DNA of 40,916 bases from a virus (taxonomy: Duplodnaviria > Caudoviricetes): the IMG/VR virus record IMGVR_UViG_3300020045_009122, positions 1 to 40,916 of that record. One strand, 5' to 3'. Of the stretch, positions 4,458 through 28,158 are shown in pieces. The translations under genes and the position numbers were made by a program. Each line of letters begins with the position of its first letter. Position 1 is the stretch's first letter. Under the pieces are notes generated by a model, which was given only the letters and a program-made list of their open reading frames with translations, did no database searches and was not told where the DNA came from.

Positions 4458-4904
4458 ATGCCGGACGCGCACAAAAATTTCTCAATTTCGACGGTGCTTA
4501 CGGCTCCGAGTCCTGCGGCGAGCGGCACATCTCTCGTTGTCGCGGCTGCTGGCGGCCTTCTTTTTCCAACCCCTCCGTTCAACGCTACGATCTGGCCGAC
4601 AGCGGTTCAGCCAACATCAGTCAATGCGGAGGTGGTTCGGGTTACTCTGATCGTTGTTGACACCCTGACGATCACGCGCACGCAGGAGGGATCATCGGCT
4701 CGGACTATCGTTGTTGGTGACCAGATTGCCGCGACGATAACAGCAAAGACGTTCACCGACATTGAACTCTCGCTTCCGACGACCTACGCGGGCGACCCGA
4801 ACGGTAATCTGGACGGCAATCCAGGCCGTCCGTGTTACGACACCGTCGGAGAGAGGAACTGGATAAAAACAACGGCGGCTGCAACATTAACTGGTTGGCA
4901 ATGA
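4458..4904 (+). CDS. Putative virion structural protein (fibre-anchor-like)
   Basis: Thr/Ala/Val-rich beta sequence; EVVRVT..DTLTITRTQEGSSAR resembles N-termini of phage fibre proteins. Confidence 0.55.
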   Translation: MPDAHKNFSISTVLTAPSPAASGTSLVVAAAGGLLFPTPPFNATIWPTAVQPTSVNAEVVRVTLIVVDTLTITRTQEGSSARTIVVGDQIAATITAKTFTDIELSLPTTYAGDPNGNLDGNPGRPCYDTVGERNWIKTTAAATLTGWQ

Positions 4905-5542
4905 AAACTCGTTTACTATTTTCGGTTCTGGTTTTGCTCACATGCTCGGTGCGCGGCCAGATAAATAATATCGTAGCTCCGGGAGGCACGTTGACGCTCA
5001 AGACCAACGTAACGGTGACGGGTGCGCTTGTGGTTGGAGCAACCAATATTGTTGGTGCGCTCAGCTCGAAAGCCGAACTGGTTTCTCCTGCGTTCACGAC
5101 TCCAAGCCTCGGGGCCGCGACGGCTCTCACCCTCGACACCGGCCAAGGCGCCAACGAACTCTACGACATGGACCAGGATGTGATGACGACTTCTGATCCA
5201 TTGTTTGGAGTTATTACAGCCAAGAAATCGTTTCGGGTTTATCAGGGTTCACTCACGCACGCCGGTACAGTCACGCTGGATTTTGACGCAACCACGACTG
5301 TCAACGCCCTGACGATCACCGGCAATGTCACATTCGCCACATCGAACCTCGCGACTAATCGGACCTACCGATTGAAGATTACAGGCACGAGCACGAATGC
5401 CACGCCTACATTTCCGGCTACGTGGAATTTCCTTGGTGGCGCTCCAACGGTAATCACAGCGTCGAAGGTAGGAATGCTCTCCCTAGAAGCATGGGGAACA
5501 ACTGATGAGAGCGTAGTCGCTGCATTCTCCGAGGCACAATGA
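4901..5542 (+). CDS. Signal-peptide-bearing Thr-rich fibre-like protein
   Basis: N-terminus MKTRLLFSVLVLLTCSVRG; C-terminal TITGNVTFATSN..TFPATWNFLGGAP resembles fibre tip domains; ATGA-coupled. Confidence 0.55.
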   Translation: MKTRLLFSVLVLLTCSVRGQINNIVAPGGTLTLKTNVTVTGALVVGATNIVGALSSKAELVSPAFTTPSLGAATALTLDTGQGANELYDMDQDVMTTSDPLFGVITAKKSFRVYQGSLTHAGTVTLDFDATTTVNALTITGNVTFATSNLATNRTYRLKITGTSTNATPTFPATWNFLGGAPTVITASKVGMLSLEAWGTTDESVVAAFSEAQ

Positions 5543-6333
5543 AGACTTGCTTCCTTTTGGCTGTTGTCCTCTTTTTTGTGGTTTGTACAAGTAGTCAACC
5601 AGCGTTCTCGACTGGCGACCTTGCTCACATTAACAGCACATCTCCACTTAGAAAAAACCTTGAGGGATACTGGAGATTAGGCGAGGCAACTGGAACAACG
5701 AGATACGATGATTCTAAAAACGGAGTCCATCTGACCAGCAATAACGGCGTTAGCCAGCAGGTGGGAATGGTAAACAATTGTTCGGGTTTCGTAAGTGCAA
5801 GCACACAATACTTAAGCGCAGCAAATACCAACCAGCTTCAGTTTTTACTTTCAACTCCGTTCACTTTAGCTGCATGGGTTAAACTCACAAACAACGCTAC
5901 AACGCAAACCTTAGTGTCGAAATTTACTGCGTCCCCATTTAGGGGATATATGACGTACGTTCAAGCGGGCAAATTTAAGGTTGTTCTGTACTCAACAAGC
6001 ACCGCTTCAAAAATTCTTGCTGCAAATGCGGTCATAACCAATGCCGTCTGGCATTTTCTGGTCGGAACTCACGACGGCACAGGAACGACGAACGGCTTAA
6101 AGGTTTGGGTTGATGGAACAAATGACACAACAGCAGTCCCTACAACGGCTGGTACTCTGACAGATATAAATAATACAGCCGAGTTTAATGTTGGGGTTTA
6201 CGGTTCATCAATAAGCCCAGCAAACGGCCTCATTGACGAAGTTGGAGTCTGGTCGAGAGTTCTGACCACAAATGAGATAGGCAAGCTCTACAGAAGCGGA
6301 CTCGGAACGCATTTTCCTTGGGCGCATCCATGA
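5539..6333 (+). CDS. LamG/concanavalin A-like domain protein with signal peptide
   Basis: LEGYWRLGE, FTLAAWVK, WHFLVGT, VWVDG, GLIDEVGVWSRVLT..EI..LY motifs. Confidence 0.85.
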   Translation: MKTCFLLAVVLFFVVCTSSQPAFSTGDLAHINSTSPLRKNLEGYWRLGEATGTTRYDDSKNGVHLTSNNGVSQQVGMVNNCSGFVSASTQYLSAANTNQLQFLLSTPFTLAAWVKLTNNATTQTLVSKFTASPFRGYMTYVQAGKFKVVLYSTSTASKILAANAVITNAVWHFLVGTHDGTGTTNGLKVWVDGTNDTTAVPTTAGTLTDINNTAEFNVGVYGSSISPANGLIDEVGVWSRVLTTNEIGKLYRSGLGTHFPWAHP

Positions 6334-6803
6334 AGATTTTACTCATGCTGTTGGTATTCTTGGTTTGCGTCTCCGCACAAGCCGCGACGTTGGCCAGCGC
6401 ACGCGCGAAGGTGGACGCGTGGCTTACAAATAACTGGTCAGCAGTCACGACTCGACAGGCAACATATCTTGCTGCACACGGACGATACTGGCAGGGATTG
6501 CTAACTTGCACAGATACGAACGGAATCCCAAACTTCACAACCGGAGCCGATGGCGATTCGATTCAGAACAATCTCGCATCTAAACCCTATTACCAGTCCG
6601 AATCTATTACGGATATTTTCCCGGAGTTTTTGGGTCTCCCTCTGCCAGCAGCATTCGAGTGCACGCAATACGTTGGACCGTTCGGAAAAGGATATGTCGT
6701 GACCGTGTGGGTTCGGTTCAACGGTACGATTTATACTCGGTCAAAGGGTGTCGGACCGGAATCGAGAGATGCAGCATGGGCCGCTTGGGTTCCTGGGTTA
6801 TGA
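6330..6803 (+). CDS. Hypothetical protein with signal peptide
   Basis: MKILLMLLVFLVCVSAQA (AxA cleavage site); ATGA-coupled to the upstream gene. Confidence 0.6.
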   Translation: MKILLMLLVFLVCVSAQAATLASARAKVDAWLTNNWSAVTTRQATYLAAHGRYWQGLLTCTDTNGIPNFTTGADGDSIQNNLASKPYYQSESITDIFPEFLGLPLPAAFECTQYVGPFGKGYVVTVWVRFNGTIYTRSKGVGPESRDAAWAAWVPGL

Positions 6804-6879
6804 CCATCCCTCTCCTCATCCTTCTCGCCTGCAGGCTGCCGATAGTCGGCAAGCGTTTCATGGAAAAATGCGCCGTGAC

Positions 6880-7056
6880 ATGATGGGTTTTTATTACTTC
6901 GGCCAACCGTATTTTGGGCAAGGGTCAGTCAACGTCGCTGCACCTGTGTCCCCCACCACGCCGCGCACAAAGAAAGAGCGCATGACCCCCGTGGAGAAGC
7001 GAGCTTACGAGAAAATTCGCGTGCTTCCTCCGGATGCTTTGCGCCTTACCCGTTGA
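6880..7056 (+). CDS. Small hypothetical protein
   Basis: MMGFYYFGQPYFGQG aromatic/Gly N-terminus; fills the gap before the capsid gene. Confidence 0.4.
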   Translation: MMGFYYFGQPYFGQGSVNVAAPVSPTTPRTKKERMTPVEKRAYEKIRVLPPDALRLTR

Positions 7057-7080
7057 CTTCCACTATTAGAGAGCCTAATG
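7053..7080 (+). promoter_or_regulatory. TTGACT plus late motif copy 2 (TATTAG-AGAGC-CTAATG)
   Basis: Intergenic; ends 11 nt before the capsid ATG; one mismatch to CATTAG-N5-CTAATG. Confidence 0.55.
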
Positions 7081-7091
7081 ATTGTAAGTAG

Positions 7092-8951: not shown

Positions 8952-9142
8952 TGAAAATACGAATTCTACGAAGCACGACTCTGCACGGTAGGGCGGTTGC
9001 TGCCGGTGAAATCCTGGAGGTGACTCCGGGAGATTATCAAAACCTTGCCGAGTACAAGCTCTGCGAGGAAGTGAAATCGGCTCCGGTTGAAGCGGTGATT
9101 GAAGCGGCTCCGAAGAAATTCGCGAAAGGAAAACAGATATGA
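8951..9142 (+). CDS. Small post-capsid protein
   Basis: 63 aa; MKIRILR..GEILEV pattern typical of small genes following the major capsid gene. Confidence 0.65.
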   Translation: MKIRILRSTTLHGRAVAAGEILEVTPGDYQNLAEYKLCEEVKSAPVEAVIEAAPKKFAKGKQI

Positions 9143-9525
9143 ATCTACAAAATCTTAACGGTGAACTGACAGGGCTCCAATTCATGAACGCTCACGCGCT
9201 CGTCGCGGCAGGTACTGCGACATTCGCGGGTGTTGACGTGAAGGAGTTCCTCGGTGACATCGCGCTGATACTGACCAGCGCAAATGCAAATGCTACCACG
9301 GGCGCACAGATCAGCCTGTTGCAGTCGGCGGACAATACTACGTTCGCGACATGGGCGGCGGCTCCGACGTTCGCGCTCCTCACGAGCGCTGTGACCGGGC
9401 CATTGCAGGCAAGTTTAGACACTCGGGCTTGCCAGCGTTACATCCAAGCAAAGCACGTGGTCACAGGCACGACAGCGACATTCGACCTTGCTCTTATTGG
9501 GGTCGGAGTTAAACAGCGAATCTGA
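9139..9525 (+). CDS. Putative capsid cement/decoration protein
   Basis: 128 aa beta-rich; LLQSADNTTF and QRYIQAKHVV resemble jelly-roll cement proteins; followed by a terminator. Confidence 0.6.
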   Translation: MNLQNLNGELTGLQFMNAHALVAAGTATFAGVDVKEFLGDIALILTSANANATTGAQISLLQSADNTTFATWAAAPTFALLTSAVTGPLQASLDTRACQRYIQAKHVVTGTTATFDLALIGVGVKQRI

Positions 9526-9545
9526 CGATTGGTTGCGGTGTGTTG

Positions 9546-9590
9546 ACCCGGGCTGGCTTGCTTTTTCACCAGCTCGGGTTTTTTCTTTTC
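9546..9590 (+). terminator. Rho-independent terminator
   Basis: ACCCGGGCTGG / CCAGCTCGGGT stem (one G-U pair) followed by TTTTTCTTTT. Confidence 0.8.
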
Positions 9591-9735
9591 TTGACGGTGG
9601 ATTCGTGTTGCGCGATTGTCCGATTGTGATTGGACCCACAGCCGAAACCGAGTTCTCAAAATTTCCCCCTCTCTGCATCTGCTTGCGCCTCTCGGGGCGG
9701 GTCCTCTCGTCGATGTAGGGAGGGGGTTTTTAGTT

Positions 9736-10968
9736 ATGAGCGAATGCGTTGAACTTTGGAACAGAGCCCGGAAGCTCCACGAGGAAAACAAATTCCTCGA
9801 AGCGGCGGACGTATACACCAAGGCCGTACTTTCTCCCGAGAACAATCCTCGCATCAAGGGCAACTGCATGAACAATCTCGGGATCATCATTCAGTCAATG
9901 GGCCATCTGGAGAAAGCCGCCGGGTGCTTCGCCTTCGCAATCTCGATGCGTCCGAAGAGCGCTGAGATTCTGAACAATATCGGCAACGTGCGGCTCTACT
10001 GCGGCGATTACCTGGGGGCGCAGGAGTTTTTTCTCAAGGCGATGGCGATGAACCCCGAGTCCGCCGAGGCGCGGCAAAACTCGGCCGTGGTCTCGCTGAT
10101 CATGGGTGAATTCCGCCGCGGCTGGATTGGGTACGAGTCAAGATGGAAATGCCCGACGTTCACGACGAAGGAATTCCCGACAAAGAAACCACGATGGAAA
10201 GGACAAAATCTCGAAGGCAAAACCATCATGCTCACGCACGAGCAAGGCTTTGGCGACTCCATCATGTTCATCCGTTACGCGAAAATGGTGAAGGATCGCG
10301 GCGCCGCGCGAGTACGGTTCCTCGGGCCGCCAGAGCTTCGGCGGCTGTTCGATGGGGTTGATGGGATCGATGAATACCTGATTGCGAATACGGATGAGGA
10401 TTTCGATTTCCACTGTCCGCTACTCTCGCTGCCAAAAGTTTTCAAAACCACGCTTGAGACGGTGCCGAGCTCGGTTCCCTACATCACACGATTTCAGCGA
10501 TGCCCAGTTCCCGAGTCTCCGGAGATGCGTGTCGGCATCGCTTGGGCCGGGCGACCTGAACACGGCAAAGATCGCTGGCGGTCAATCACCGCGAAGCACT
10601 TCACACCATTGATGGATCTGGACAAGATAGCTTGGGTGTCTCTTCAGGTCGGGGCCAAGGCATCAATGGTTTCCGATTTACCGAAGGTGATCGATCTGTC
10701 ATCAACGCTGCGCGACTTCACCGATACGGCTGGAGCAATCGCACACCTTGACCTCATCATCTCCATCGATACGGCGCTCGTGCATCTGGCTGGCGCGATG
10801 GCGAAACCCGTCTGGATGCTGACCCCTTATAATCCAGATTGGCGATGGATGTTGAACCGCACGGACAGTCCCTGGTATCCGACGATGAGATTATTTCGGC
10901 AACCGAAACAGGACGATTGGGATTCGGTTTTTGCGGATGTGCGGAACGCGCTCTTGGATCTGCTATGA
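9736..10968 (+). CDS. TPR-repeat glycosyltransferase (GT9/heptosyltransferase-like GT-B fold)
   Basis: TPRs (NNLG, PKSAEILNNIG), HEQGFGDSIMF, VGIAWAG, ISIDTALVHLAGAM, DWRW, SPWYPTMRLFRQ. Confidence 0.9.
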   Translation: MSECVELWNRARKLHEENKFLEAADVYTKAVLSPENNPRIKGNCMNNLGIIIQSMGHLEKAAGCFAFAISMRPKSAEILNNIGNVRLYCGDYLGAQEFFLKAMAMNPESAEARQNSAVVSLIMGEFRRGWIGYESRWKCPTFTTKEFPTKKPRWKGQNLEGKTIMLTHEQGFGDSIMFIRYAKMVKDRGAARVRFLGPPELRRLFDGVDGIDEYLIANTDEDFDFHCPLLSLPKVFKTTLETVPSSVPYITRFQRCPVPESPEMRVGIAWAGRPEHGKDRWRSITAKHFTPLMDLDKIAWVSLQVGAKASMVSDLPKVIDLSSTLRDFTDTAGAIAHLDLIISIDTALVHLAGAMAKPVWMLTPYNPDWRWMLNRTDSPWYPTMRLFRQPKQDDWDSVFADVRNALLDLL

Positions 10969-11558
10969 CCGCTCTCGAATATTTCCTTGCTGAACTCTGC
11001 CTGGACTCCTACCCCGAGCCAATCACTGCCGGTCATTCTGCGATTACCGAAAGAGTATTTGAGGGCATCCGGCATCTTATCCCGTCGGGAGCTAAAGTGC
11101 TGGACGTTGGATGCGGCTCAGGACCCGCTCTCGCTCTGTTTCGCAAGTACGGATTCAATGCGGAGGGGATCACGCCGAACAAAACCGATTTTGCTGCGTG
11201 TCAGTTCCACGGTTTCCGTGTCCACAATATGATGCAGGAGCAGTTGACGTTCACCGACGAATGCTTCGATCTTGTTTGGGCTCGTCACGTCCTTGAGCAT
11301 TCTCCGATTCCATACTGGGTGCTACACGAGTTCCATCGCGTGTGCGGGCCGGGCGGATTGCTCTACGTAGAGGTTCCGGCGCCAGATACAGCCTGCCATC
11401 ACGAAACGAACGAGAATCATTACAGTTGCCTCACGTTTTCCACATGGGTTCAACTGATCCAACGAAGTGGTTTTGAGATTTTTGAGAGCTTAAAAATTCC
11501 ACTCTCAACGCCGGTTGGACCGGATGAATACTGGAGTTACCTCTGCCGAAAAAAATGA
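10965..11558 (+). CDS. Class I SAM-dependent methyltransferase
   Basis: VLDVGCGSG motif I, FDLVWARHVLEH, GGLLYVEVP. Confidence 0.9.
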   Translation: MTALEYFLAELCLDSYPEPITAGHSAITERVFEGIRHLIPSGAKVLDVGCGSGPALALFRKYGFNAEGITPNKTDFAACQFHGFRVHNMMQEQLTFTDECFDLVWARHVLEHSPIPYWVLHEFHRVCGPGGLLYVEVPAPDTACHHETNENHYSCLTFSTWVQLIQRSGFEIFESLKIPLSTPVGPDEYWSYLCRKK

Positions 11559-12598
11559 AATCTTCCCTTTTCTATGCTGGCCAACCAGGCAACGGCTTCG
11601 GTTGGGGAACATGCAACAAATACCTAAGACTGGAGCTTGGGAAGCTGTTTGAATTGCGCGAACTACCATCTCGCCCATGCGGAGTGGGCTCGCCGCTCTT
11701 CATGCCCATAGCTGACCACGACCTCGAACCAATCACACAACACAGCGGCAAGCCGACCATCGGTTACACGTTCTTTGAATATCCTCTAGGCGCGCGCTCG
11801 CGTAAGAATGCGGCGCGCTACGATTGGATCTTCGCGGGTTCGTCCTGGTGTGTGGATCGGCTGAATGCGCACGGGATCGAGCATTGTTCGGTGCTGGTTC
11901 AGGGGGTGGACCATGAGATATTCCATCCGGCAACCGAAGCGCGAATTAGTGACGGAAAATTCCGCATCTTCTCCGGCGGAAAATTCGAGTGGCGCAAGGG
12001 GCAGGATCTCGTCATCGCCGCATTCCGCAAACTCTCCAAGCAGTTCCCCGAGATGACCCTCGTCGCTGCCTGGCACAATCCCTGGCCAGACCTAATGAAG
12101 ACCATGTGCCAAAGCCCACACATCGAATGGGACGCGCGCGGCGACACGCAGGAAGAGTTCTTGATTGACCTCTGCAAGAACAACGGCATCCCGGAGGGCC
12201 GGGTCGAGATCCTGCCGCTCTGTTCCCAGAAGCAACTGGCCGACGTTATGAGGTCCTGTGACCTGGGGGTTTTCCCCAATCGCTGCGAGGGCGGAACAAA
12301 CCTCGTGCTGATGGAATTTATGGCGTGCGGGAAACCGGCTATGGTAAGTTACGTGACAGGGCACATGGACGTTGCTACTGCTTTTAACTCTGCCTGGCTG
12401 ACAGGTGAAAAAACTAATGCTGGATGGTGCGAGGTGAGGGTCAATCAAATCGTAGAGCAGGTGACGGCGTTGCGAGACATGCCGCTTTGCAGAGAAGGAA
12501 TCTCGCAGCAGGCAGCAATGGACATGAAGCAGTGGACGTGGGCACGAGCAGCAAAAACTATTGCGGGTAAAATTGACGAGTTATGCCGAGCGCATTAG
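11555..12598 (+). CDS. Glycosyltransferase family 4
   Basis: GVDHEIFHP, GKFEWRKGQD, FPNRCEGGTNLVLMEFMACGKP (EX7E-like), WTWARAA. Confidence 0.9.
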   Translation: MKSSLFYAGQPGNGFGWGTCNKYLRLELGKLFELRELPSRPCGVGSPLFMPIADHDLEPITQHSGKPTIGYTFFEYPLGARSRKNAARYDWIFAGSSWCVDRLNAHGIEHCSVLVQGVDHEIFHPATEARISDGKFRIFSGGKFEWRKGQDLVIAAFRKLSKQFPEMTLVAAWHNPWPDLMKTMCQSPHIEWDARGDTQEEFLIDLCKNNGIPEGRVEILPLCSQKQLADVMRSCDLGVFPNRCEGGTNLVLMEFMACGKPAMVSYVTGHMDVATAFNSAWLTGEKTNAGWCEVRVNQIVEQVTALRDMPLCREGISQQAAMDMKQWTWARAAKTIAGKIDELCRAH

Positions 12599-12903
12599 AC
12601 GAAACGAGATTCATTTCGGCCTGGCGGTTCATCATTGCCCAGCAGCCCAAGGTCTTCACATTCTCGGCTGTGAATTACACGGGATTCATGTCGGACATCA
12701 ACAATACCATTGACCTCGGGATCGGTGGGTTCACGCAGGGAAACGACACTCGGCTGTTTTGTCTCCGGGCGGATTTTCTTTCAACGGTTCCCACTGAGGG
12801 AGACATCGTGACGGTTGCTGGCATTCCCTATCGCATCTCGCAGGTGACTGTTGTAAAAACATTCGGACTGGTCTTTACGTTGGAGGGCCCGAGCAAACCA
12901 TGA
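12583..12903 (+). CDS. Putative head-tail joining / head-closure protein
   Basis: 106 aa beta-rich, PTEGDIVTVAGIPYRI (gpFII-like); synteny. Confidence 0.6.
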   Translation: MPSALDETRFISAWRFIIAQQPKVFTFSAVNYTGFMSDINNTIDLGIGGFTQGNDTRLFCLRADFLSTVPTEGDIVTVAGIPYRISQVTVVKTFGLVFTLEGPSKP

Positions 12904-13993: not shown

Positions 13994-14001
13994 AATCCAC
14001 G

Positions 14002-14035
14002 TTGACTAGGCCACGTCATTAGGTAAGCTAATGAC
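14002..14035 (+). promoter_or_regulatory. Candidate promoter TTGACT-N16-TAAGCT overlapping late motif copy 3 (GTCATTAG-GTAAG-CTAATGAC)
   Basis: Intergenic, immediately before ATG 14036; perfect 8-bp inverted repeat at 14015-14035. Confidence 0.65.
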
Positions 14036-18638: not shown

Positions 18639-18764
18639 CACTCCTGACAGACACCGTGAGAGACAGCGTCGCTGGCTTCTGGGCATTTCACACCCAACAC
18701 CTTTTTGCACCATGCGCAGACGATTGTGATCATGCCAACCTATCGGCACGCGCTTGGAAAAGAA

Positions 18765-18796
18765 TAGACTCTGCTCAAGCATAAGGTAACCTAATG
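18765..18796 (+). promoter_or_regulatory. Candidate promoter TAGACT-N16-TAACCT overlapping late motif copy 4 (CATAAG-GTAAC-CTAATG)
   Basis: Same geometry as the 14002 site; ends 5 nt before ATG 18802. Confidence 0.55.
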
Positions 18797-18801
18797 AGTG
18801 A

Positions 18802-19446
18802 ATGACGCTCAAGTTCGCGGTTGACATTTCGCAGCGCAAACTGGTTCTTTCTCCCTACCGGCCAGAGCCGTTCGTTCTTCCGGTCCTCGTGCAAGGGGAC
18901 ACCATTTCCCTCGAAATACAACTGTGCGAGCCGAACTACGGCGCCGGGTTCGGTCGTTACTCGCTGGTCAACATTGCAAACCTCACTCTTCGAGCGGCGA
19001 TCATCGGCCATCGGCCAATCGGGAATGCGTCCGACACTCCCGAGGTGTTGCAGACGAGCTGGATCAAGGACACCGCGACGAACACGTTCAAAGGGGTGCT
19101 ATCAATGGGGGCCGGCGTCACGACGTTGCTGGGGGCTGCGTCAAGTGTCGATGCTTATTTCGAGATCGAAACCAAGGACGGTGATACTGGGTATTACGAT
19201 ACCGTTTATCCGTGGGCGCTCTGCACGATTAGAGCGGAAGCTATCGAGGACGGAGTCCTGGTCAGTCCGCCAGTCAGCGGTGGCTCTGCGCTCACCGTCC
19301 AAGAGGGCAATCAGATTTACGTCAAGAGGCGGGGGTTGCCTGGGGAAATGTTTTCGCTCGTGTCAGCGAACGGGCTCTGGGAGCGAATCATCGGCGTTGA
19401 TGATAACGGCACCAAGCTCGATGAGGTGATCGAATACGTACCATGA
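18802..19446 (+). CDS. Putative baseplate / fibre-attachment protein (BppU-like N-terminus)
   Basis: LVQGDTISLEIQL and AYFEIE motifs resemble upper-baseplate N-terminal domains; precedes the large fibre gene. Confidence 0.45.
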   Translation: MTLKFAVDISQRKLVLSPYRPEPFVLPVLVQGDTISLEIQLCEPNYGAGFGRYSLVNIANLTLRAAIIGHRPIGNASDTPEVLQTSWIKDTATNTFKGVLSMGAGVTTLLGAASSVDAYFEIETKDGDTGYYDTVYPWALCTIRAEAIEDGVLVSPPVSGGSALTVQEGNQIYVKRRGLPGEMFSLVSANGLWERIIGVDDNGTKLDEVIEYVP

Positions 19447-22400
19447 AGATTTTTAGGGTTCTTGTTTTTTTGATGCTCTTTGTTCCGGCTGCGCGCGCGG
19501 CGCTCGATCAGACGATTGTCACGCTTACCATGACGAACGCGCCGGTCCCGGGCGATACGCTCACTGTCAACGGAAGCGTGAGGACGTGGACAAACACGGT
19601 CGTCACGGCATCAACTCAAATCCTGACCAACTCGAACATCGGGCTTGCGACTACGAACCTCTGGCGGCACATCACCACTTACAATTTTGGGCCGACAATT
19701 CGCATGACATGGATGGCCACGAATTCCGTGAGGTGGATCTCCAATCCTGGAGTGACGCTGGACGTTGGGGTGACGGGCGCATGGGCAACGCTCACGACGA
19801 ACTTCACGCAGACCACCGAGCAATATCCGATCATTGTTCCAGCGATTTCAGCGTACACTCTGAACACGGTTCGGACGAATCTCCTGAGTTTGTTGCTTAC
19901 CGATTTGGATCGTTACCCGAGCAATTCATTCTCCTCGACAGCGACAGCGATGACGAATTTTTTCAACCTGTCGAACGCGCAGACCGGCGGCAACAAGACG
20001 ATCACGAACTCTTCGTTCTATGGGACCGCGTTCCCTCGGAGGAATGTTTCGTCGTTGGCAAACGGAGCCAACAGCGGAATAAATTTTGGAGTCGAGTCCT
20101 ACATCAAGCTCGTGCCTGGGCCTACAGATCCATTTTCAATCGACGGGATAATTCACAACGGGCGCAACGGTCGGTTCATCATCATCGAGAATGCAACCGG
20201 GGAGGATCTGCTGATCGCAAACGAATCAATATCCGAGGCCACGCCGGACAACCGGATTCTGACAGGGACAGGCTCCGCCGTCACGACCATTGGAAATGCT
20301 GTTTTCGGTTTGATTTACGACACCGACGCGCTTCGGTGGAAGCTGGTCTTTGTCTCGGATTCAATCGCTGGCACGAGTGGGTTGCCTGAGATCGAGACGA
20401 TAGCGGCATTGAAAGCGCGCAATGTCCTCAATCCTATTACCACCGTTTACGTCCGCGGGTATTCGAGCCTCAACGACGGTGGCCAAGGAATTTTCGTCTA
20501 TGACGCAACGTCAGTCGATTCGGATGATGGTGGGATTGTATTCACTCCTACCACGGGCGGCGGAAAATGGAAAAGGGCTGTCGATGGGCGAACCTATTTC
20601 GCGTCGTGGTGGGGTCCGACGCGAACGAATTCCACTCTTCAATCAGCAATCAATTATGTGTCAACCTCGGGCGGAGGGACGGTTGTTGTTGGAGGTGGAA
20701 ATTGGATCGTCAAATCTGATGACACCAACCGGGTGACGATGAGGAGCAACGTCACGCTGACCACGGATGCGGACGGACAGATCGTTTGCGCGGCGAGTCC
20801 TACGAACAGTTGGGTTTTGATCGACGTTGCTCTGGATTCAGTCAATTGGACAATCGGACCGGCGCGGCTTGTCGGATGGGACCTTGCTGCGCCTGGTGGC
20901 GACACGAACAAAACCGGAGTGATCATCGCTGCGCAGGATACCGTGAACGGAACTGTCGGTGGCGTTCGCGCGAGCAACTGGTATTCACAATATGCGGACA
21001 TTGGGAGCGGAAACCAAAATCTCCAGATGTTCGATCAGGACTGGCAGCCTGGCGCGATGGCGCACGGTGCTAAGGGCGACGGCGTCACCGATGATCGGCG
21101 GAGTCTTCAATCGTTCGCGTCTTTCTGCGAGCGTTACAACGTCGAGTTCTACATGCGGCCAACTACGAACGGCTATCTTATCGGCGGCACCGGGGAAGCG
21201 GTCGCAGGCGGTGTGTATTTCACCAATGGCGTTCCGGTCAAGTTGCGCGGCGATGGCACTATCATCAAGAGCATCTACTACAATCCCGACGAAGGAGTTG
21301 TGCCGCGATACTCCACCGCATTCAACATCACAGCGAACAATTGCTCCGTGGAGGGCTTTGACTTCAGAACTGTCGGAGCATACCCAACAACAGAAACGAA
21401 CGCATCCGTTACAGGCTTTTTCATTCCGTTGATTGTCCACATGGGCACGAACACGTTGATTCAAAACAACACGTTTACGGTTGAGAGCGGTAAGGGGATT
21501 TTCCTTTCAGGGGCATCCTATACGAAGGTTCTGAACAACACGTTCAACGATTGCGGAATATCTACAGGCAATGGCCATCAGCCGGACTGGCTGTGGTACG
21601 AAGCTGCGGTGCCGATAAAGGGCGGCCCGTCGCGCTCTCCTATCGGATGCGTGTTTGAAGGGAACATTTTCAATCGTGGCTCACCGTACAAACACACGTT
21701 ATTCCTATCGGCTGCGGATGACTTTACGGTTACTAAAAATCATCTCGTGAACATGAACGGCCCGCTCACGCTTGCCGTCTATTCCGGTGACGAAGGCACT
21801 ACGGATCAGTTTGGAACAAACGTTTACATCGTGCGCGGCACCATAGCCAACAACTTCATCAGCGGCACAAACATTGGATCGGCCAACGCGGCCATCTATG
21901 TCGCTCTCACTACTCCGACTAATTACGTCCCTATAACTTTTACCCCGAGCAACATGGTTTCGGGAATCACCGTTCGTGACAACTACATTGCTGGCGTCGG
22001 CAACGGCATTGAAATCTTAACCGCGCCAGGGACCAAAGTAATCGGTAATGATGTTCGTGTTTCCGGGTCTCCGCTTTGGTATGTGGGCGATGTTAAGAAT
22101 ACCATCGTGGAATACAATCACCTCGAATCCACGAATACCGGCGTGGGCAATATCACGATCACGTGGTCAGTCGGGTATTTGCAACCACAGGAAGCTGACG
22201 GGCTCGTTTTCCGCCACAATCGCGTTGTGACTCCTCCGGGTGACGAATACGCCATCAGGACAATCCCGCCGAACCTTGTGTCGAATTTTAAGATGACGGA
22301 CAATGAGTTCTATTTCTCGGGGGCTGCCGGGACTGGAGACGCTCCGGCTGTGTTTCAGTTTTACGGAAGCACGAACAGGATTGATATTTCACATAACCGT

Positions 22401-23807
22401 TTCTACATCACCAACACCTTAAGCTTGCGCCGCCTGGGTCGCGTCCTTATCAGCGAGCCAAACACAGATGTTCATTTCAATGACAACATAAGCATCCCCA
22501 TGAGCCCGTCTGTGGTTCTGCAAGGACCGATCCTGAGCGGGCGCACCGTGGTAGCTACTGGAAACGACGTGGGAAGCATGACGTTCGACAGCATCGACGA
22601 TTTGATTGTGAGTAGAAATATCCTCACCTCGAATACGAATTCCCCAATCCCGCTGGAGATCACGGCCACGCGCCGCGCTTCTATCGTCGGCAATTACATA
22701 TGGAACAACTCGACGGTGGCGGCGCTCGGGGCGACTATCGCAGCGACCAACAGCACGTTTTCAGGCAATATCGTGCGTGTCAATTCGAGCAGCGACATCA
22801 TTCGTTCTACGCTTGGCAAAATGTACGTTCACAACAACGTCATCACCAATGTCGGCGTCGGGCTTACATATCCAAACGGAACCGGAACGGGAACAATTTC
22901 TGATGATATTTACGAACGTCCACTCATCGTGGATATCTCTGGAGTGAATGATTACCTATTCAGCTTTCATCGGAACGGCAGCCCAGCCAAGTACAGGATG
23001 GTGCTCGATAATTATTTCACAGGTTCAACCCGCGACGCTCAGTTCTACATTGATCCTGATTCTGCGACTGAAGCCGCCGGTTTGGCATTCTTCGCGCGGA
23101 AGGCGGATGGCAATCGGCAGTTCGTATTCGGCGCGCACGGGTTTACGACGCCGGTGTTCTATGTCGGCACCGAAAGCAATGCGACCGATATAGTTTTGCG
23201 TTCGTCTGTTGGGCTCGGGACAAACATCCTGGTTTATCTCAACGAGAACCGAGCCATGAGAGCTGTGACTATCGGCTCTGGAATCACATTCACCAACGGC
23301 ATACTTTCGGGAGGCGGAGCGGCATCCATCCAACTGCCAGTCAACATCGCTAAACTGCCATCGGCAAATCCGGCTGAACTGGACGCGACTAACACGATTC
23401 ACCGGCTGTTGTTCGATGATACTACGGCTCAGACCGTGACGTGGACGTTTATCTTGCCTCAGAACTATGGGAATACTCCAAAGATTAGACTAAAAACAGA
23501 CTGCAATCAGGTTCAGACCGGCAACAAAGTCACTTCACTTAATGCGTACATTTCTGCAATAGGAAACGGAGAGAGCACCGTATCTCCGCCTTTTGCTGCC
23601 GCGAACCTAAACAATGTTACTTGGGGATTGGACCAAGCGCCGTTTGTAAACGTCCCTGTAGTAATCTCCTTGTTTTTTGAAGATAACATGGTCGCTGGGG
23701 ATCTCGTCGTGCTGAAGCTAGAGCGAGATGCGGCATCCGGCACAGACACCGCCGTGGGCGATACAGCCATCGTCGGAAGCGTGGAATTTGAATACCAAAA
23801 GCAATGA
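19443..23807 (+). CDS. Tail spike/fibre-like protein with parallel beta-helix (pectate lyase-like) domains and signal peptide
   Basis: MKIFRVLVFLMLFVPAARA; TIAALKA..VYVRGY...DGGQG.F.YD..DDGG domain; GAKGDGVTDD..SLQ beta-helix cap; many xxNxI/F repeats. Confidence 0.8.
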   Translation: MKIFRVLVFLMLFVPAARAALDQTIVTLTMTNAPVPGDTLTVNGSVRTWTNTVVTASTQILTNSNIGLATTNLWRHITTYNFGPTIRMTWMATNSVRWISNPGVTLDVGVTGAWATLTTNFTQTTEQYPIIVPAISAYTLNTVRTNLLSLLLTDLDRYPSNSFSSTATAMTNFFNLSNAQTGGNKTITNSSFYGTAFPRRNVSSLANGANSGINFGVESYIKLVPGPTDPFSIDGIIHNGRNGRFIIIENATGEDLLIANESISEATPDNRILTGTGSAVTTIGNAVFGLIYDTDALRWKLVFVSDSIAGTSGLPEIETIAALKARNVLNPITTVYVRGYSSLNDGGQGIFVYDATSVDSDDGGIVFTPTTGGGKWKRAVDGRTYFASWWGPTRTNSTLQSAINYVSTSGGGTVVVGGGNWIVKSDDTNRVTMRSNVTLTTDADGQIVCAASPTNSWVLIDVALDSVNWTIGPARLVGWDLAAPGGDTNKTGVIIAAQDTVNGTVGGVRASNWYSQYADIGSGNQNLQMFDQDWQPGAMAHGAKGDGVTDDRRSLQSFASFCERYNVEFYMRPTTNGYLIGGTGEAVAGGVYFTNGVPVKLRGDGTIIKSIYYNPDEGVVPRYSTAFNITANNCSVEGFDFRTVGAYPTTETNASVTGFFIPLIVHMGTNTLIQNNTFTVESGKGIFLSGASYTKVLNNTFNDCGISTGNGHQPDWLWYEAAVPIKGGPSRSPIGCVFEGNIFNRGSPYKHTLFLSAADDFTVTKNHLVNMNGPLTLAVYSGDEGTTDQFGTNVYIVRGTIANNFISGTNIGSANAAIYVALTTPTNYVPITFTPSNMVSGITVRDNYIAGVGNGIEILTAPGTKVIGNDVRVSGSPLWYVGDVKNTIVEYNHLESTNTGVGNITITWSVGYLQPQEADGLVFRHNRVVTPPGDEYAIRTIPPNLVSNFKMTDNEFYFSGAAGTGDAPAVFQFYGSTNRIDISHNRFYITNTLSLRRLGRVLISEPNTDVHFNDNISIPMSPSVVLQGPILSGRTVVATGNDVGSMTFDSIDDLIVSRNILTSNTNSPIPLEITATRRASIVGNYIWNNSTVAALGATIAATNSTFSGNIVRVNSSSDIIRSTLGKMYVHNNVITNVGVGLTYPNGTGTGTISDDIYERPLIVDISGVNDYLFSFHRNGSPAKYRMVLDNYFTGSTRDAQFYIDPDSATEAAGLAFFARKADGNRQFVFGAHGFTTPVFYVGTESNATDIVLRSSVGLGTNILVYLNENRAMRAVTIGSGITFTNGILSGGGAASIQLPVNIAKLPSANPAELDATNTIHRLLFDDTTAQTVTWTFILPQNYGNTPKIRLKTDCNQVQTGNKVTSLNAYISAIGNGESTVSPPFAAANLNNVTWGLDQAPFVNVPVVISLFFEDNMVAGDLVVLKLERDAASGTDTAVGDTAIVGSVEFEYQKQ

Positions 23808-24547
23808 GACTCATAATTCTGCTTCTCTCGGCTCTCTCGGCTCAGGCGGCTTACGTCAACTGGGATGTTCATAATTACTCGTGGGACGGGAAGTCCAAGG
23901 ACGTAACCTGCATCGAGTATAACCGAACCTACGAACGGTTTACTGCTTCTGCGCCTCCGTATCCTCAACATAGCCAATTCGTGAAATACTCAGCGTCGCC
24001 GCTCTGCCAGTTCAACGGCCTGCTGGTCGAGGATCGGGTTTTGTGGACTAGCGTCGCAATGGCTGACTCGAACGTCTACAGCTACCAGAACGGAGTCTGC
24101 ATCCAAACCAACGCGCACACCGGACCGTTGCCTGAGTACCAGCCAAAGCGCATCCGCGAGATGGCTTATTACACGGACCTAAACATGGATGGCAGCTCCG
24201 GCGGGAAGTTCTCGCGCTACACGTTCGGTAGGCAACGCTTCTGGATCAACGCGGTAACTAACGGGAATTACTACGTCAAAGTCACTTTCACAGGAGGCTA
24301 CTGGGACGACTGGTTTCCGGGCCACTCCTATCCGGGGGACATCGACGATATAAATACGCCAGCCGTGAAACAGTTCAATTACGTGGCTGACGGCGTGCGG
24401 ATAAACAACATCACTCCAAACTATGCCGGCGTGGTTTACTTCTACTGGAACCCATACGGCGGGGTGACAATTGACCTAACTCCGACGGTAGCCAATGCGA
24501 CTCGCGGAAGGCACTGGAAATACCACCTGATAATGGAAATCCCTTGA
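23804..24547 (+). CDS. Hypothetical secreted-type protein
   Basis: MRLIILLLSALSAQA signal peptide; aromatic-rich. Confidence 0.6.
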   Translation: MRLIILLLSALSAQAAYVNWDVHNYSWDGKSKDVTCIEYNRTYERFTASAPPYPQHSQFVKYSASPLCQFNGLLVEDRVLWTSVAMADSNVYSYQNGVCIQTNAHTGPLPEYQPKRIREMAYYTDLNMDGSSGGKFSRYTFGRQRFWINAVTNGNYYVKVTFTGGYWDDWFPGHSYPGDIDDINTPAVKQFNYVADGVRINNITPNYAGVVYFYWNPYGGVTIDLTPTVANATRGRHWKYHLIMEIP

Positions 24548-27500
24548 GAACTCTTTTACTCCTTCTTCTCTCGGTGCTGTCAGTCTCCGGGCAGCAGAGC
24601 AGGTCGCAGGGAAGGGCTCCAGGTCTGGAACCAATCGTAAGCCAGCTCATCACGGTTGACGTTGGTGAGTCGCAGACAATTCCAGGGCCTTCCGCAATAG
24701 CAGTCCTGGAGGCCATTGTCGGCATCACTGGCGGCAGCACAAACGGAGTTGTGACAAGCTGGACTTACACCGAGGGGCCGCTCTCCGCTGAATTCGCCCA
24801 ACAGAACGGCATCACCAACCTTGGAACCTTTACATCCGTCGGTCGATACACGATCACCGTTGTTGCGCAGAAGGGTGTGCTGTTCAACACGAATTCGATT
24901 TATGTGTTCGTGGTCGATCAGGGGATCACGAACTTCAATCCAGCCGTCAGCATGACACGTCCTGCCAACGGTGCTGAATTCACAGCACCGATCAATCTGA
25001 CTCTGGCTGCTGACGCGCAGGACAAAGACGGTAGCGTAACAAATGTGGTTTTCTACAACGGAGCTACTCCGCTCTGGACGAGCACAGTCGCGCCTTACAC
25101 ATTCACGCTGACGAACGCAGCGGCGACCAATTACGTCTTTGCGGCCGCTGCGACGGATAACCGGGGCGCAACAAATCTCTCAGCTTCAGTCTCGGCAATC
25201 GTGCGCGAATCGACCACGCCCATTCTCGTTCCGCCATTGGTCAGCATCACGACACCGACCAATGACGCATCATTCACCGCTCCGGTGACGTTCGACCTCA
25301 CGGCCGCAGCCAGCGATTCAGACGGCACCATCACGAGCGTCGCGTTCACCGACAACGATGTCACACTTAGCGTCGATACAACTTTCCCTTACTCGGTCAG
25401 TCTCTCGCCTACGGTCGGGATTCACACCATCCGCGCTACCGCTCTGGACGATGACGGATTGACTTCCGTCGCAACCGCGTTCTTTACCGTGCTCAATCCG
25501 CCAAACATCCTGCCAGTCGCAACGCTCACGGTGCCTACAAACGGCGCGGTGTACACGGCTGCCGCTGACATTCCACTCGAAGCAATAGCAACAGACGAGG
25601 ACGGGACAATCTCGTTCGTGCGTTGGTTCGTGAACGGAGCACAGATCGCAACTGACAGCACCGCTCCATACACGAATGTTGTCTTGTCTCTTGGAGTTGG
25701 TTCCTACGTGTTTGTCGCTCAGGCAATAGACAACCGTTCAGCAGTTGGAACGAGCACGACTAATACGATCACGGTCAACCCGCCAGCAGGCACACCTCCG
25801 GTGGTATCGCTTACGTCTCCGACCAACGGGCAGGCGTTCGTCGCCGGGGCCACTGTGACCCTGACCGCGACGGCGACCGATGCGGGGACGATCACCAACG
25901 TCGCGTTCTGGTCGTCTGTCACAGATCCGCCAACTCCCGGCGAAGAAACTATTGTCAATGATGATGCCGAGGGGCTCGCCTACACCGGCTCATGGACCGA
26001 TAACAACGGTGCTCTCAACCGCAACAACGGTGACGAGCACTACACGCAAACCACCGGCGCGAGTGTGTCGCTCACGTTCACGGGCACTCAGGTGTCGTGG
26101 TTCGGAACTAAGTTCAGCAATCGCGGCAATGCAGATGTCTTTATCGATGATGTGCTCCAAACCACCGTGGACGAATACAATTCCACGGTTCTCTATCAGC
26201 AGGAGCTGTTCACTATCGGCGGGCTGACAAACGGATCACACACGATCAAAGTCGTTTGCAAGGGAACGAAGAACGGCTCATCGACCGGATACTACGTGGA
26301 TCTGGATTTCTTTCAGTATTCAACCGAGGTTGCTGCCGGGCCGGTGGAAACCCTGGTGGCCAGCGATACCACTTCGCCATATACCCAATCCTGGATACCG
26401 GCGGCCAACTCCTATTTGATTGTGGCGCGCGCTTACAACAACGTCGGGCTGGTTTCTACCAGCACACCGCCGGTGTTGATCACGGTCAATCCGCCGATCC
26501 CTCCCATCGTGACGTTGACTCTGCCGACCAACGGAGCGGCATTCGTTCAAGGAGATAACATCGCGCTTGCGGCGATTGCCAGCGATCAGGACGGCACGGT
26601 TACGAATGTTGTTTTTATGCAATTCCAGCCGGACGCGTTCATTACCTCGGATCCAAGTTCCCCCTACTCTGGAACGTGGACGAATGCTCCGGCTGGTTCT
26701 TACGCGCTCGTTGCCAAAGCGTTCGATTCGAGCGGGCTCACCACTATCTCGCCTGCGATCAACATCACGATTGCACCAACGCCTCCGCAGAGTGTGTTCG
26801 TAGACGCGGGGCCATTCCGCACCGCAACGATGAGTGCGTACAAAAATTATTTCGACTCCGAGTATACCGACAACGCAGCGACGTTTAACGCCATTGTCAA
26901 CGCGGGCACGGGGCCGAACATGTATAACGCGCAGTTCTTCATCGACGGCACCATCAGCATGTACGAAGGAACCAAGGACACCAATTACATCAACCGCGCC
27001 CTGGTCTGGTCCGAGACATGCGTGCTACGGGCAAACATCACTGACAGCAACGGTAAGAAGAATTGGGGAGGCGTCTGGGCTTCGCCGTATACAGCGACTC
27101 CGATTGCTTACCAGCTTGAAGAAATCCAGGGCGCCAGCGCCATGAGCAGGGTAGCGAGAATCGTAATGACTGACCCGGACCTCCGCGCGGTCTATGGCAC
27201 CAGAGCAACCGCCGTCTATAACTTCTGCCGTGACCATATCCTCGCTAAGCACCTCGTCACGCGGGCCGGGTATTCCGCTTACGCCAACTGGAGCCAAGTG
27301 ACGACGAGCAACACCTCGGACAAACCGAGCATCCTCCTGCGCCTTGTCCTGGACTGCAAAGCCATCAGCGCCGTGCTTGGAAGCTCCGATGCGTCTACCT
27401 ACGGCTGGGCTACCAAGGCGACCGAACTCGCCGAGGGTATCAAGGATTACAACGGCAAGGAAGCGCGATTCCTTCCGTGGCAAGGCGGACTGATCTGGGG

Positions 27501-28158
27501 GCACGGCAAGGTGTGGCAGTCCTGGACAGATATTGACACGTCGCACGCGAACCGGCTGCCGTTCGTGGTGATCCAAGGCTTCGAGATGGGCCAGACGTTC
27601 ACTATGACGCACGTCACGGGGTTGGCCAATCTGCTCACGCTCACGCTCTGGGATCTTTCGACCACATCGCCGCAGTTCAGGAATTTCCTCAGCGGCTATA
27701 ACGGGCCGTTCCTGAACCGGCCAGCGTGGAACAACGGAAAGATCGCGGATGGCTGGAGCTTGCTCGCCGGGTATGATGCGAGCGCCGCGAGCGCTGTCAA
27801 AGCAACGGTGCGGGCAATTTACAACGGTGTGAGCAATCCGAGTCTGTCGTACAACGACTCGCATCTTGCGCGACACGCGCTCATTGGCCATCTGGTTCGT
27901 TCTGTGTCGCTGCGCGAGTCGCCGCCTTACGCTACGCTTACCGGCATCGCCACGGGCAGTGGCATAACGGGTATGCTTTGGACACACGTAAGCGGGCCAA
28001 GCGGTTGGACTATCGCCAAGCCGACGAGCGCCGCGACAACGATTCTGTTCACCAGCGCTGCTGTCGGTGCGCACACATTTCGGCTTACCGTGTCGTCTGG
28101 CAGTCCTGATGTGTCCGACGACGTTGGAGTTACTGTTGTTGCCGCTCCCGCGATGTAG
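24544..28158 (+). CDS. Multi-Ig-domain adhesin-like protein with CBM-like jelly roll and helical domain, signal peptide
   Basis: About five P.V..T.PxN(G/D)A.F..A.A.D.DG....V.F bacterial Ig repeats; YTGSW..SLTFTGT..GSHTIKV jelly roll inserted in one repeat; PKD-like halves flank an aromatic helical domain; TTG start. Confidence 0.8.
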   Translation: MRTLLLLLLSVLSVSGQQSRSQGRAPGLEPIVSQLITVDVGESQTIPGPSAIAVLEAIVGITGGSTNGVVTSWTYTEGPLSAEFAQQNGITNLGTFTSVGRYTITVVAQKGVLFNTNSIYVFVVDQGITNFNPAVSMTRPANGAEFTAPINLTLAADAQDKDGSVTNVVFYNGATPLWTSTVAPYTFTLTNAAATNYVFAAAATDNRGATNLSASVSAIVRESTTPILVPPLVSITTPTNDASFTAPVTFDLTAAASDSDGTITSVAFTDNDVTLSVDTTFPYSVSLSPTVGIHTIRATALDDDGLTSVATAFFTVLNPPNILPVATLTVPTNGAVYTAAADIPLEAIATDEDGTISFVRWFVNGAQIATDSTAPYTNVVLSLGVGSYVFVAQAIDNRSAVGTSTTNTITVNPPAGTPPVVSLTSPTNGQAFVAGATVTLTATATDAGTITNVAFWSSVTDPPTPGEETIVNDDAEGLAYTGSWTDNNGALNRNNGDEHYTQTTGASVSLTFTGTQVSWFGTKFSNRGNADVFIDDVLQTTVDEYNSTVLYQQELFTIGGLTNGSHTIKVVCKGTKNGSSTGYYVDLDFFQYSTEVAAGPVETLVASDTTSPYTQSWIPAANSYLIVARAYNNVGLVSTSTPPVLITVNPPIPPIVTLTLPTNGAAFVQGDNIALAAIASDQDGTVTNVVFMQFQPDAFITSDPSSPYSGTWTNAPAGSYALVAKAFDSSGLTTISPAINITIAPTPPQSVFVDAGPFRTATMSAYKNYFDSEYTDNAATFNAIVNAGTGPNMYNAQFFIDGTISMYEGTKDTNYINRALVWSETCVLRANITDSNGKKNWGGVWASPYTATPIAYQLEEIQGASAMSRVARIVMTDPDLRAVYGTRATAVYNFCRDHILAKHLVTRAGYSAYANWSQVTTSNTSDKPSILLRLVLDCKAISAVLGSSDASTYGWATKATELAEGIKDYNGKEARFLPWQGGLIWGHGKVWQSWTDIDTSHANRLPFVVIQGFEMGQTFTMTHVTGLANLLTLTLWDLSTTSPQFRNFLSGYNGPFLNRPAWNNGKIADGWSLLAGYDASAASAVKATVRAIYNGVSNPSLSYNDSHLARHALIGHLVRSVSLRESPPYATLTGIATGSGITGMLWTHVSGPSGWTIAKPTSAATTILFTSAAVGAHTFRLTVSSGSPDVSDDVGVTVVAAPAM

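What the first reader, a model, noticed from the sequence alone, without database searches (positions are those of the whole stretch)
4901..28158. Six structural-region proteins carry Sec-type signal peptides and abundant N-X-S/T sequons
Seen: N-termini MKTRLLFSVLVLLTCSVRG (4901), MKTCFLLAVVLFFVVCTSS (5539), MKILLMLLVFLVCVSAQA (6330), MKIFRVLVFLMLFVPAARA (19443), MRLIILLLSALSAQA (23804) and MRTLLLLLLSVLSVSG (24544). Most are visibly rich in TN dipeptides and sequons (TNVT, TNRT, TNAT, NNAT, TNDT, TNFT, NKTITNSS, TNST, TNAS, TNLS), unlike the capsid, portal or early proteins. Established: tailed virions assemble in the cytoplasm, so fibres and spikes normally lack signal peptides; bacterial OST-type N-glycosylation is periplasmic. 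Inference: fibre/spike/Ig proteins are exported, possibly glycosylated by the host, and added to the virion at or after lysis. Alternatively they act at the infected cell surface.
Basis: partly seen in the sequence, partly recalled or inferred. Interest (0 to 1): 0.85.

Follow-up and report, generated by a model that had tools for sequence, protein, structure and literature searches.

The report
Phage fibres made outside the cytoplasm
Six fibre-, spike- and lectin-like proteins of this uncultured tailed phage begin with secretion-signal-like leaders and carry twice the chance number of threonine-asparagine pairs, as exported proteins of its likely host group do, so they are likely exported, possibly sugar-tagged, and would attach to leaderless anchor proteins of the particle only at lysis, although tailed phages are thought to be built entirely in the cytoplasm.

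Summary
The six leaders are real, at the stated coordinates. They were called by a hydrophobicity/charge rule, not SignalP. N-X-S/T sequons are not enriched (55 vs 47±6 in shuffles). The real bias is Thr-Asn (62 vs 30±5), absent from the other 36 ORFs. The 1454-aa protein heads a family of 1100 clusters: 128 of 149 top members have a leader, TN 2.5x, N-X-S/T 1.05x. Both blocks follow a leaderless anchor gene. gp18802 has a BppU-N fold and directly precedes the exported gene in 21 of 26 loci. gp4458 is the N-terminal domain of ordinary leaderless fibres elsewhere. A related prophage lies in a Verrucomicrobiia chromosome, and exported chromosomal proteins of that order share the TN bias (2.1x; cytoplasmic 1.0x). 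STT3/PglB was found in only 4 of 121 genomes of the order, so canonical N-glycosylation is not supported. Best reading: split fibres, with anchors built in the cytoplasm and distal parts exported, probably host-modified at TN, docking at lysis (0.6). Export, modification and virion location are untested. Cellulophaga phi18:3 virion proteins gp085-087 carry similar leaders. The scan has noted this pattern on other phage DNA; my paper searches found no description.

The parts
4458..4904 (+). Leaderless 148-aa head/neck fibre anchor candidate (gp4458); residues 1-110 are the N-terminal domain of ordinary phage fibres
   Evidence: PHROG tail-fibre N-terminal matches, E 4.5e-10; 55-75% identical to the N-termini of 213-1244-aa leaderless proteins in 8 of 12 viral loci (best-segment identity 43-75%)
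4901..5542 (+). SP1, 213 aa, leader + phage fibre-type protein
   Evidence: Leader; Atlas look-alikes are viral fibre clusters, score 0.92-0.93, PF26209 on 33% of one cluster
5539..6333 (+). SP2, 264 aa, leader + LamG/ConA-like lectin
   Evidence: PF13385 E 1.7e-20; homologue with leader in L111
6330..6803 (+). SP3, 157 aa, leader + unknown domain; travels with SP2
   Evidence: Homologue with leader directly after the SP2 homologue in L111, there in the tail block; no family
6880..7056 (+). Leaderless 58-aa ORF with an FGQPYFG motif, closing the head-region block
   Evidence: a gene opening with a similar motif follows the fused gp4458-type fibre in L112, L114 and more weakly L122
18802..19446 (+). 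Leaderless 214-aa tail-tip anchor, BppU-N fold plus short C-terminal beta motif
   Evidence: Model pLDDT 87; TP901-1 BppU 4v96 Z 9.1 (rmsd 3.0, 118 aligned) and 3uh8 Z 8.7, T5 tail tip 7qg9 Z 8.7; Foldseek E 2e-5; 21 aligned family members 196-220 aa, none with a leader
19443..23807 (+). SP4, 1454 aa: leader, domain D1 (23-121), spike-type sandwich D2 (198-306), beta-helix tailspike-like body, C-terminal domains
23804..24547 (+). SP5, 247 aa, leader + unknown domain
   Evidence: Leader; no family or relative found
24544..28158 (+). SP6, 1204 aa, leader + five Big_7 Ig domains, carbohydrate-binding-type module, PKD domain
   Evidence: PF17957 E 7e-55, PF17996, PF22352; seven close homologues, six with leaders; phage context in L111

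Best explanation
This siphophage, likely of a Verrucomicrobiia order, encodes two leaderless anchor proteins each followed by three leader-bearing fibre, spike and lectin proteins, which are likely exported through the host Sec pathway, probably modified by a host enzyme at Thr-Asn sites, and would dock on the anchors of finished particles when lysis opens the inner membrane. Shown in sequence: leaders, gene order, TN excess, the same excess in exported chromosomal proteins of the order. Predicted: BppU-N fold of gp18802; virion-type folds of SP1 and SP4. Inferred: gp18802 trimers sit at the tail tip and bind SP4 domain D1 through their C-terminal motif; gp4458 sits at the head or neck and carries SP1, then SP2/SP3; SP5 and SP6 are further branches. 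Inferred: TN is the acceptor motif of a periplasmic, non-STT3 protein glycosylation system, analogous to Bacteroidota D-(S/T); I put this step at about 0.55 and cannot say whether Thr or Asn is modified. Export would give the appendages the host's folding environment and surface mark, and keep large glycan-binding parts out of the cytoplasm.
For: Leader conservation: 120 of 149 homologues at the called start, 8 more at a nearby start; 24 of 26 distinct D1 loci; 0 of 70 core virion homologues and 0 of 21 anchors. Fixed pairing: an anchor gene directly precedes the D1 gene in 21 of 26 distinct loci, across different head modules. Split architecture: the gp4458 domain is fused to leaderless fibres in 8 of 12 loci (TN 26 vs 24.9), and the anchor's N-domain lies in open frames of 318-1141 aa in several other Verrucomicrobiota genomes. 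Folds. SP4 is the only large tailspike-like gene in the tail block. Complex prediction, anchor 146-214 x3 with SP4 20-190 x3: weak support, score 0.60 (runs 0.60, 0.01, 0.83), best of 3 controls 0.05, runs agree in at least 48% of contacts, partner pLDDT at least 57; the mark was reached by 116 of 157 solved complexes and 2 of 215 mismatches, but at 0.60 or under by only 18 of the 157 and by both mismatches. Host mark: G303 exported 276 vs 129.3 (66 proteins), cytoplasmic 104 vs 100.5 (129 proteins); G046 122 vs 69.5 (45 proteins); G456, another order, 14 vs 17.3 (15 proteins); G001 7 vs 7.0 (8 proteins). Fold control: 119 Big_7 homologues have median TN ratio 0.68, nine named ones from other groups 0-0.97, the seven close ones 1.4-2.65. 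Precedent: phi18:3 gp085-087 are annotated as structural by MS/MS and pass the same leader rule, while 8 other structural proteins scored do not.
Against: No experiment shows export, cleavage, modification or virion location. Leaders come from my rule, not SignalP. One of three complex runs scored 0.01. D1 also resembles flagellin and FliD domains (Z 6-7) and D2 a secreted protease domain (6o38, Z 9.3). SP6 looks like a cellular secreted multi-Ig protein; SP3 and SP5 have no virion-type match. In G303 the D1 gene stands without an anchor. No modifying enzyme was identified. Two of the best conserved TN pairs (71-72, 145-146) lie in predicted helices, which could be structural. G046 cytoplasmic proteins show 1.18x and phage ORFs not called as exported 1.49x, which I attribute to missed leaders. 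phi18:3 gp085-087 hold fewer Bacteroidota D-(S/T) motifs than chance (1, 1, 2 vs 4.7, 3.8, 3.7), and a leader-bearing gene behind a fused anchor in G552 has no TN: export does not require the host mark. Two of three GTDB hits were in Acidobacteriota bins; I read these as misbinned, with small samples only.
Confidence: 0.6

Rival explanations
1. The six proteins are exported but never join the virion: they act at the infected or lysogenic cell surface, degrading capsule to aid release, masking receptors or excluding other phages.
For: SP6 resembles cellular secreted Ig/carbohydrate proteins; related loci carry an alpha-galactosidase and a GDSL esterase with leaders in this block; D1 occurs without an anchor in G303.
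Against: Translational coupling inside the late operon; anchor adjacency in 21 of 26 loci; SP1-3 replace the body of an otherwise fused fibre; the anchors would have no fibre to carry; phi18:3 precedent.
Confidence: 0.2
2. One reading: exported parts are N-glycosylated at N-X-S/T by a PglB/STT3 enzyme.
For: 55 sequons are present; T-N-X-S/T is 12 vs 5.8; STT3 passes the cut-off in 4 of 121 genomes of the order.
Against: No N-X-S/T excess in window, family (1615 vs 1545) or host (261 vs 240); in the family Asn after Thr is followed by S/T at +2 in 486 of 2300 cases, below background 0.235; no STT3 found in the single-contig G303 chromosome or in G002.
Confidence: 0.05
3. The leaders tether or delay the proteins rather than export them (uncleaved anchors or inefficient export), and fibres are added in the cytoplasm; TN is then a structural or inherited bias.
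For: Textbook cytoplasmic assembly (recalled); no direct export data; some TN pairs lie in helices.
Against: Short h-regions ending in A-x-A-like sites across the family (consensus); TN confined to leader-bearing proteins in both phage and host, across unrelated folds.
Confidence: 0.08
4. Particles cross the inner membrane first and finish assembly in an enlarged periplasm before the outer envelope breaks.
For: No endolysin was recognised in the window; an enlarged periplasm in this superphylum is recalled, not tested.
Against: No crossing mechanism is evident; unrecognised lysins are common; holin-like genes follow SP6 (28172, 28590; by hydrophobicity only).
Confidence: 0.07

Closest known systems
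BppU (ORF48) baseplate arm of lactococcal siphophage TP901-1 (PDB 4v96, 3uh8) and T5 tail-tip ring proteins (7qg9)
   Same: Predicted N-terminal fold of gp18802 and position after the tail-tip genes; receptor-binding part is a separate gene.
   Different: Here the downstream partner has a secretion-type leader and a TN excess; known partners are cytoplasmic (recalled).
Cellulophaga phage phi18:3 gp085-087 (KC821620)
   Same: Consecutive genes annotated as structural by MS/MS that pass the same leader rule.
   Different: Bacteroidota host, no similarity tested to these proteins, host D-(S/T) motif below chance; the record does not remark on the leaders.
General O-glycosylation of Bacteroidota, D-(S/T)-hydrophobic (PMC12871550; abstract and section 5 read)
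   Same: Short motif enriched over chance in non-cytoplasmic proteins of one lineage; transferase unidentified.
   Different: Motif is Thr-Asn, Ser does not substitute (SN 0.72x), lineage is Verrucomicrobiota, no glycan has been measured.
PglB/STT3 N-glycosylation at N-X-S/T
   Same: Periplasmic modification near Asn is conceivable.
   Different: Sequon not enriched; enzyme rare in the order.
Virion glycosylation of mycobacteriophage Che8 (as cited in PMC11256854, passages read)
   Same: Glycosylated tailed virions exist; this window also encodes glycosyltransferases among head genes.
   Different: Attributed to phage glycosyltransferases acting on capsid proteins; no export involved as described there.
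CBA120 TSP4 N-terminal and Acinetobacter phage Solidus gp83 spike domains (7rej, 24qj)
   Same: Fold of SP4 domain D2 (Z 7.1 and 8.7; Foldseek E 9e-4 and 1e-4).
   Different: Those tailspikes are made in the cytoplasm (recalled).

Membership tests
Sec/SPase I signal peptides | Positive n-region, hydrophobic h-region at the true start | tested here: met
   own rule, 0 of 70 core homologues called
Sec/SPase I signal peptides | Small residues at -3/-1 | tested here: met
   Read from sequence (AQA, ARA, AQA, VRG, VSG, TSS); family consensus ends AxA; cleavage sites not predicted by a trained tool
Sec/SPase I signal peptides | Cleavage and translocation in vivo | not testable with these tools
   Needs fractionation or N-terminal sequencing
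PglB/STT3 N-glycosylation substrates | N-X-S/T (or D/E-X-N-X-S/T) excess in exported proteins | tested here: not met
   55 vs 47.1; extended 6 vs 3.3, p 0.11; 1.05x family; 1.09x host
PglB/STT3 N-glycosylation substrates | STT3-family transferase general in the host group | tested here: not met
   4 of 121 genomes over cut-off, none found in G303 or G002; control rang in 4 archaea
Bacteroidota-type motif-directed O-glycosylation | D-(S/T)-hydrophobic motif | not tested
   Not counted on the six proteins; counted only on phi18:3. The motif enriched here is T-N
Bacteroidota-type motif-directed O-glycosylation | Lineage motif restricted to non-cytoplasmic proteins (works-like test, for T-N) | tested here: met
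Bacteroidota-type motif-directed O-glycosylation | Glycan measured on the motif | not testable with these tools
   Needs glycoproteomics
BppU-like siphophage fibre anchors | BppU N-terminal Ig-like fold, gene after tail-tip genes | tested here: met
   (Z about 9, top six rows all phage tail or neck chains)
BppU-like siphophage fibre anchors | Binds the receptor-binding protein through its C-terminal part | tested here: inconclusive
   Weak support only, 0.60 vs control 0.05
Beta-helix tailspikes | Right-handed beta-helix body | tested here: met
   PF13229 E 2e-7, PF05048
Beta-helix tailspikes | Cytoplasmic synthesis with N-terminal particle-binding domain at residue 1 | tested here: not met
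   N-terminus is a conserved leader
Beta-helix tailspikes | Present in the virion | not testable with these tools
   Uncultured phage

The most novel reading that the evidence does not exclude
A large phage lineage of Verrucomicrobiota finishes its virion in two compartments: cytoplasmic anchors capture Sec-exported fibres and spikes at lysis, and those parts carry a host glycan placed on a so far undescribed Thr-Asn motif by a non-STT3 transferase.
Probability: 0.38. Interest if true: 0.92.

Novelty: categorically new. Interest (0 to 1): 0.8.

Why it matters
It would break the rule that tailed virions are completed in the cytoplasm, and it would explain why such phages' receptor-binding proteins look like host secreted proteins. 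It also points to a motif-directed protein modification in an abundant, little-cultured bacterial group that is neither N-X-S/T nor the Bacteroidota motif. Both claims are directly testable: phi18:3 is in culture, and host glycoproteomics needs no phage.

Tried and rejected
N-X-S/T enrichment: rejected. TN as a by-product of beta-rich or Ig folds: rejected by Big_7 homologues and fused gp4458-type fibres. TN as a DNA-level bias: rejected, since cytoplasmic genes of the same genomes lack it. Wrong start codons: rejected by 4-nt overlaps; SP1 has an upstream in-frame GTG at 4832 that I did not use. Candidate transferases: TMTC PF08409 rang nowhere, including controls, so uninformative; PMT PF02366 is in 5 of 5 genomes, with and without TN bias; PF11846 under cut-off in all 5. 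Viral scans with the capsid protein, SP5 and SP1 found no relative; SP2 had no match in annotated phages; the Atlas left SP3 unexplained. A search for longer forms of the anchor gave 2 weak partial hits. D1 was not matched in 101 + 101 genomes drawn from two other orders, only repeat regions of the profile; with 3 of 301 in the G002 order this is weak. Samples of G327, G552, G602 and G003 were too small to judge TN (1-10 exported proteins). Sequencing runs: none was listed. HFTV1 as a precedent: passages of PMC12494034 and bioRxiv 10.64898/2026.09.13.751334 show no leaders on virion proteins; the latter notes P22 tailspike has none. bioRxiv 10.64898/2026.10.24.761521 (passages) covers phage outer-membrane and sortase substrates, not virion parts. 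No supplements were read; those of the phi18:3 proteomics study could bear on the precedent.

Full report
The window is a 40.9-kb siphophage-type genome, with the genes I analysed on the + strand: terminase, lambda-type portal, fused protease-capsid, head closure, short tape measure (356 aa), then recombination and replication genes. It is the whole record held.

Observation. The six ORFs and their N-termini are as reported, each coupled to the upstream gene by a 4-nt overlap. With no SignalP, I used a rule (8-residue hydrophobicity at least 2.6 near the start, net positive charge before it). It flags 8 of 42 window ORFs: the six, a 58-aa membrane protein and a lipoprotein-like ORF. N-X-S/T is 55 against 47.1±6.0 in shuffles, not significant. 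Thr-Asn is 62 against 30.2±4.9, Asn-Thr 18 against 30.3; the other 36 ORFs show neither bias.

Family. SP4 residues 1-330 find 1100 clusters at E up to 0.001. Of the 149 listed homologues, 120 pass the leader rule at the called start, 8 at a nearby start and 21 do not; many of the 21 show weaker or truncated leaders by eye. TN is the top dipeptide (2300 vs 914), SN is 0.72x, N-X-S/T 1.05x. In an alignment of SP4 with the 120, TN columns 31-32, 71-72 and 145-146 are 81-99% conserved. Core virion homologues in 22 related loci show TN 48 vs 50.6 and no leaders (70 proteins).

Architecture. Of 42 loci examined, 31 hold domain D1; after dropping 5 duplicates, 26 remain. In 21 the gene directly upstream is a leaderless 196-220-aa homologue of gp18802 (four of these seeded the profile); four others lack enough upstream DNA or show none in 1.5 kb, and one is the G303 island. 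These loci have different head modules. The gp18802 model matches BppU-N and related tail or neck chains. SP4 D1 matches a protruding sheath domain (8kee, Z 11.2, rmsd 1.8, 88 aligned) and nozzle domains, and more weakly flagellin domains; D2 matches CBA120 TSP4, Solidus gp83 and a secreted protease domain. A three-plus-three complex of anchor C-terminus and SP4 20-190 got weak support: 0.60 against a best control of 0.05, with one run at 0.01 (calibration counts in Best explanation). The head-region block repeats the plan. The gp4458 domain begins leaderless 213-1244-aa proteins in 8 of 12 viral loci; three are cut by contig ends or unclear, one matches only the C-terminal motif, and an annotated phage has it alone at 111 aa. 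In L112 and L114 the next gene opens with an FGQPYFG-like motif, as does window ORF 6880-7056. SP1-3 thus sit where the fibre body normally is. SP1 resembles viral fibre clusters. L111 carries homologues of SP2, SP3, SP4 and SP6, all with leaders, in one tail block. In 401 genomes of the phylum the anchor profile hit 13: mostly longer leaderless frames, but in G602 and G640 a short anchor followed by a TN-rich leader-bearing gene.

Host. GTDB hits were one Verrucomicrobiia and two Acidobacteriota bins. The Verrucomicrobiia contig (G002:C60, 84 kb) has the prophage followed by housekeeping-type genes. In 301 genomes of that order D1 was matched in three. I take the order to be Verrucomicrobia subdivision 3 (Limisphaerales) from recall; no call names it. 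In 31 sampled 20-kb stretches of G303, exported soluble proteins have TN 2.13x, the top dipeptide, and strict cytoplasmic proteins 1.03x (ORFs near region edges, membrane proteins and Arg-rich frames were dropped). G046 gives 1.75x and 1.18x; G456, from another order, 0.81x and 0.87x; G001 1.0x on 8 proteins. Basic residues are depleted two places after the Asn in both phage family and host. Big_7 homologues from other groups lack the bias. STT3 is rare in the order; no other transferase tracked the bias.

Mechanism. I commit to two-compartment assembly at 0.6: anchors built into head/neck and tail tip in the cytoplasm, distal parts exported and pooled in the periplasm, docking at lysis. TN as a glycosylation motif is a separate inference at about 0.55. 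Rivals: surface-acting cargo 0.2, non-exporting leaders 0.08, periplasmic completion before lysis 0.07, STT3-type glycosylation 0.05. A mixed case, with SP1 and SP4 on the virion and SP5/SP6 free, is counted under the best reading.

Known work. Nine paper searches were answered (make ten with one on HFTV1); I saw listings and abstract openings, and none described exported fibres of tailed phages or a Thr-Asn motif. The library lacks most subscription papers. I read the abstract and section 5 of PMC12871550 and passages of PMC11256854, PMC12494034 and two preprints. The GenBank record of phi18:3 marks gp085-087 as structural by MS/MS; all three pass the leader rule, 8 other structural proteins scored do not. 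Co-purification is possible, so this is a precedent to check, not proof. Earlier scan notes report the same pattern in other Verrucomicrobiota-type and Bacteroidota phages; they are not independent evidence, and the phi18:3, BppU and Bacteroidota leads came from them and were rechecked here.

Verdict. Observation partly confirmed; export of virion appendages likely; canonical N-glycosylation not supported; Thr-Asn host mark real, function inferred. Interest 0.8.

Noticed in passing
window 9736-12598: TPR + GT9-like protein, SAM methyltransferase and GT4 lie between capsid and head-closure genes, all leaderless. L009 has a TPR-GT9 homologue, L013 and L014 a GT2, L016 an FkbM methyltransferase at a similar place. 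Possibly cytoplasmic glycosylation of capsid or tail, separate from the TN mark.
   Followed up: partly
G303:C1:2314540-2323578 (L046): About 9-kb island: integrase, HK97-type capsid, leader-bearing D1 fibre, tape-measure homologue, no anchor or tail tube seen. Looks like a capsid-forming satellite or remnant with its own exported fibre.
   Followed up: partly
window 38791-40071: Leaderless 426-aa protein with a tail-protein-like N-terminal match (PHROG 13768, E 7e-8) placed after the replication genes; TN 3 vs 1.6.
   Followed up: partly
window 28172-28766: Two small membrane-type genes after SP6 where lysis genes are expected; no endolysin recognised in the window by Pfam, PHROG or NCBIfam.
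   Followed up: partly
window 36095-37165: Lipoprotein-like ORF (homologue in L111) followed by a Spherulin4 family protein (PF12138 E 1e-39), a possible exopolysaccharide hydrolase.
   Followed up: no
L002 n/a; L003:911-1627, L006:410-1510 and 1866-2318, L007:881-1345, L008:1541-2155: Related phages also put leader-like, often TN-rich genes right after the capsid gene, candidate exported decoration proteins.
   Followed up: no
L132:622-1860 and the following ORF (G552): A 412-aa fused anchor is followed by a leader-bearing gene with no TN in the part seen: export without the TN mark in another Verrucomicrobiota genome.
   Followed up: no
L005, L007: Phage contigs of this lineage sit in Terriglobia and Pyrinomonadaceae bins; exported proteins of the Terriglobia bin show no TN bias, suggesting misbinning.
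   Followed up: partly
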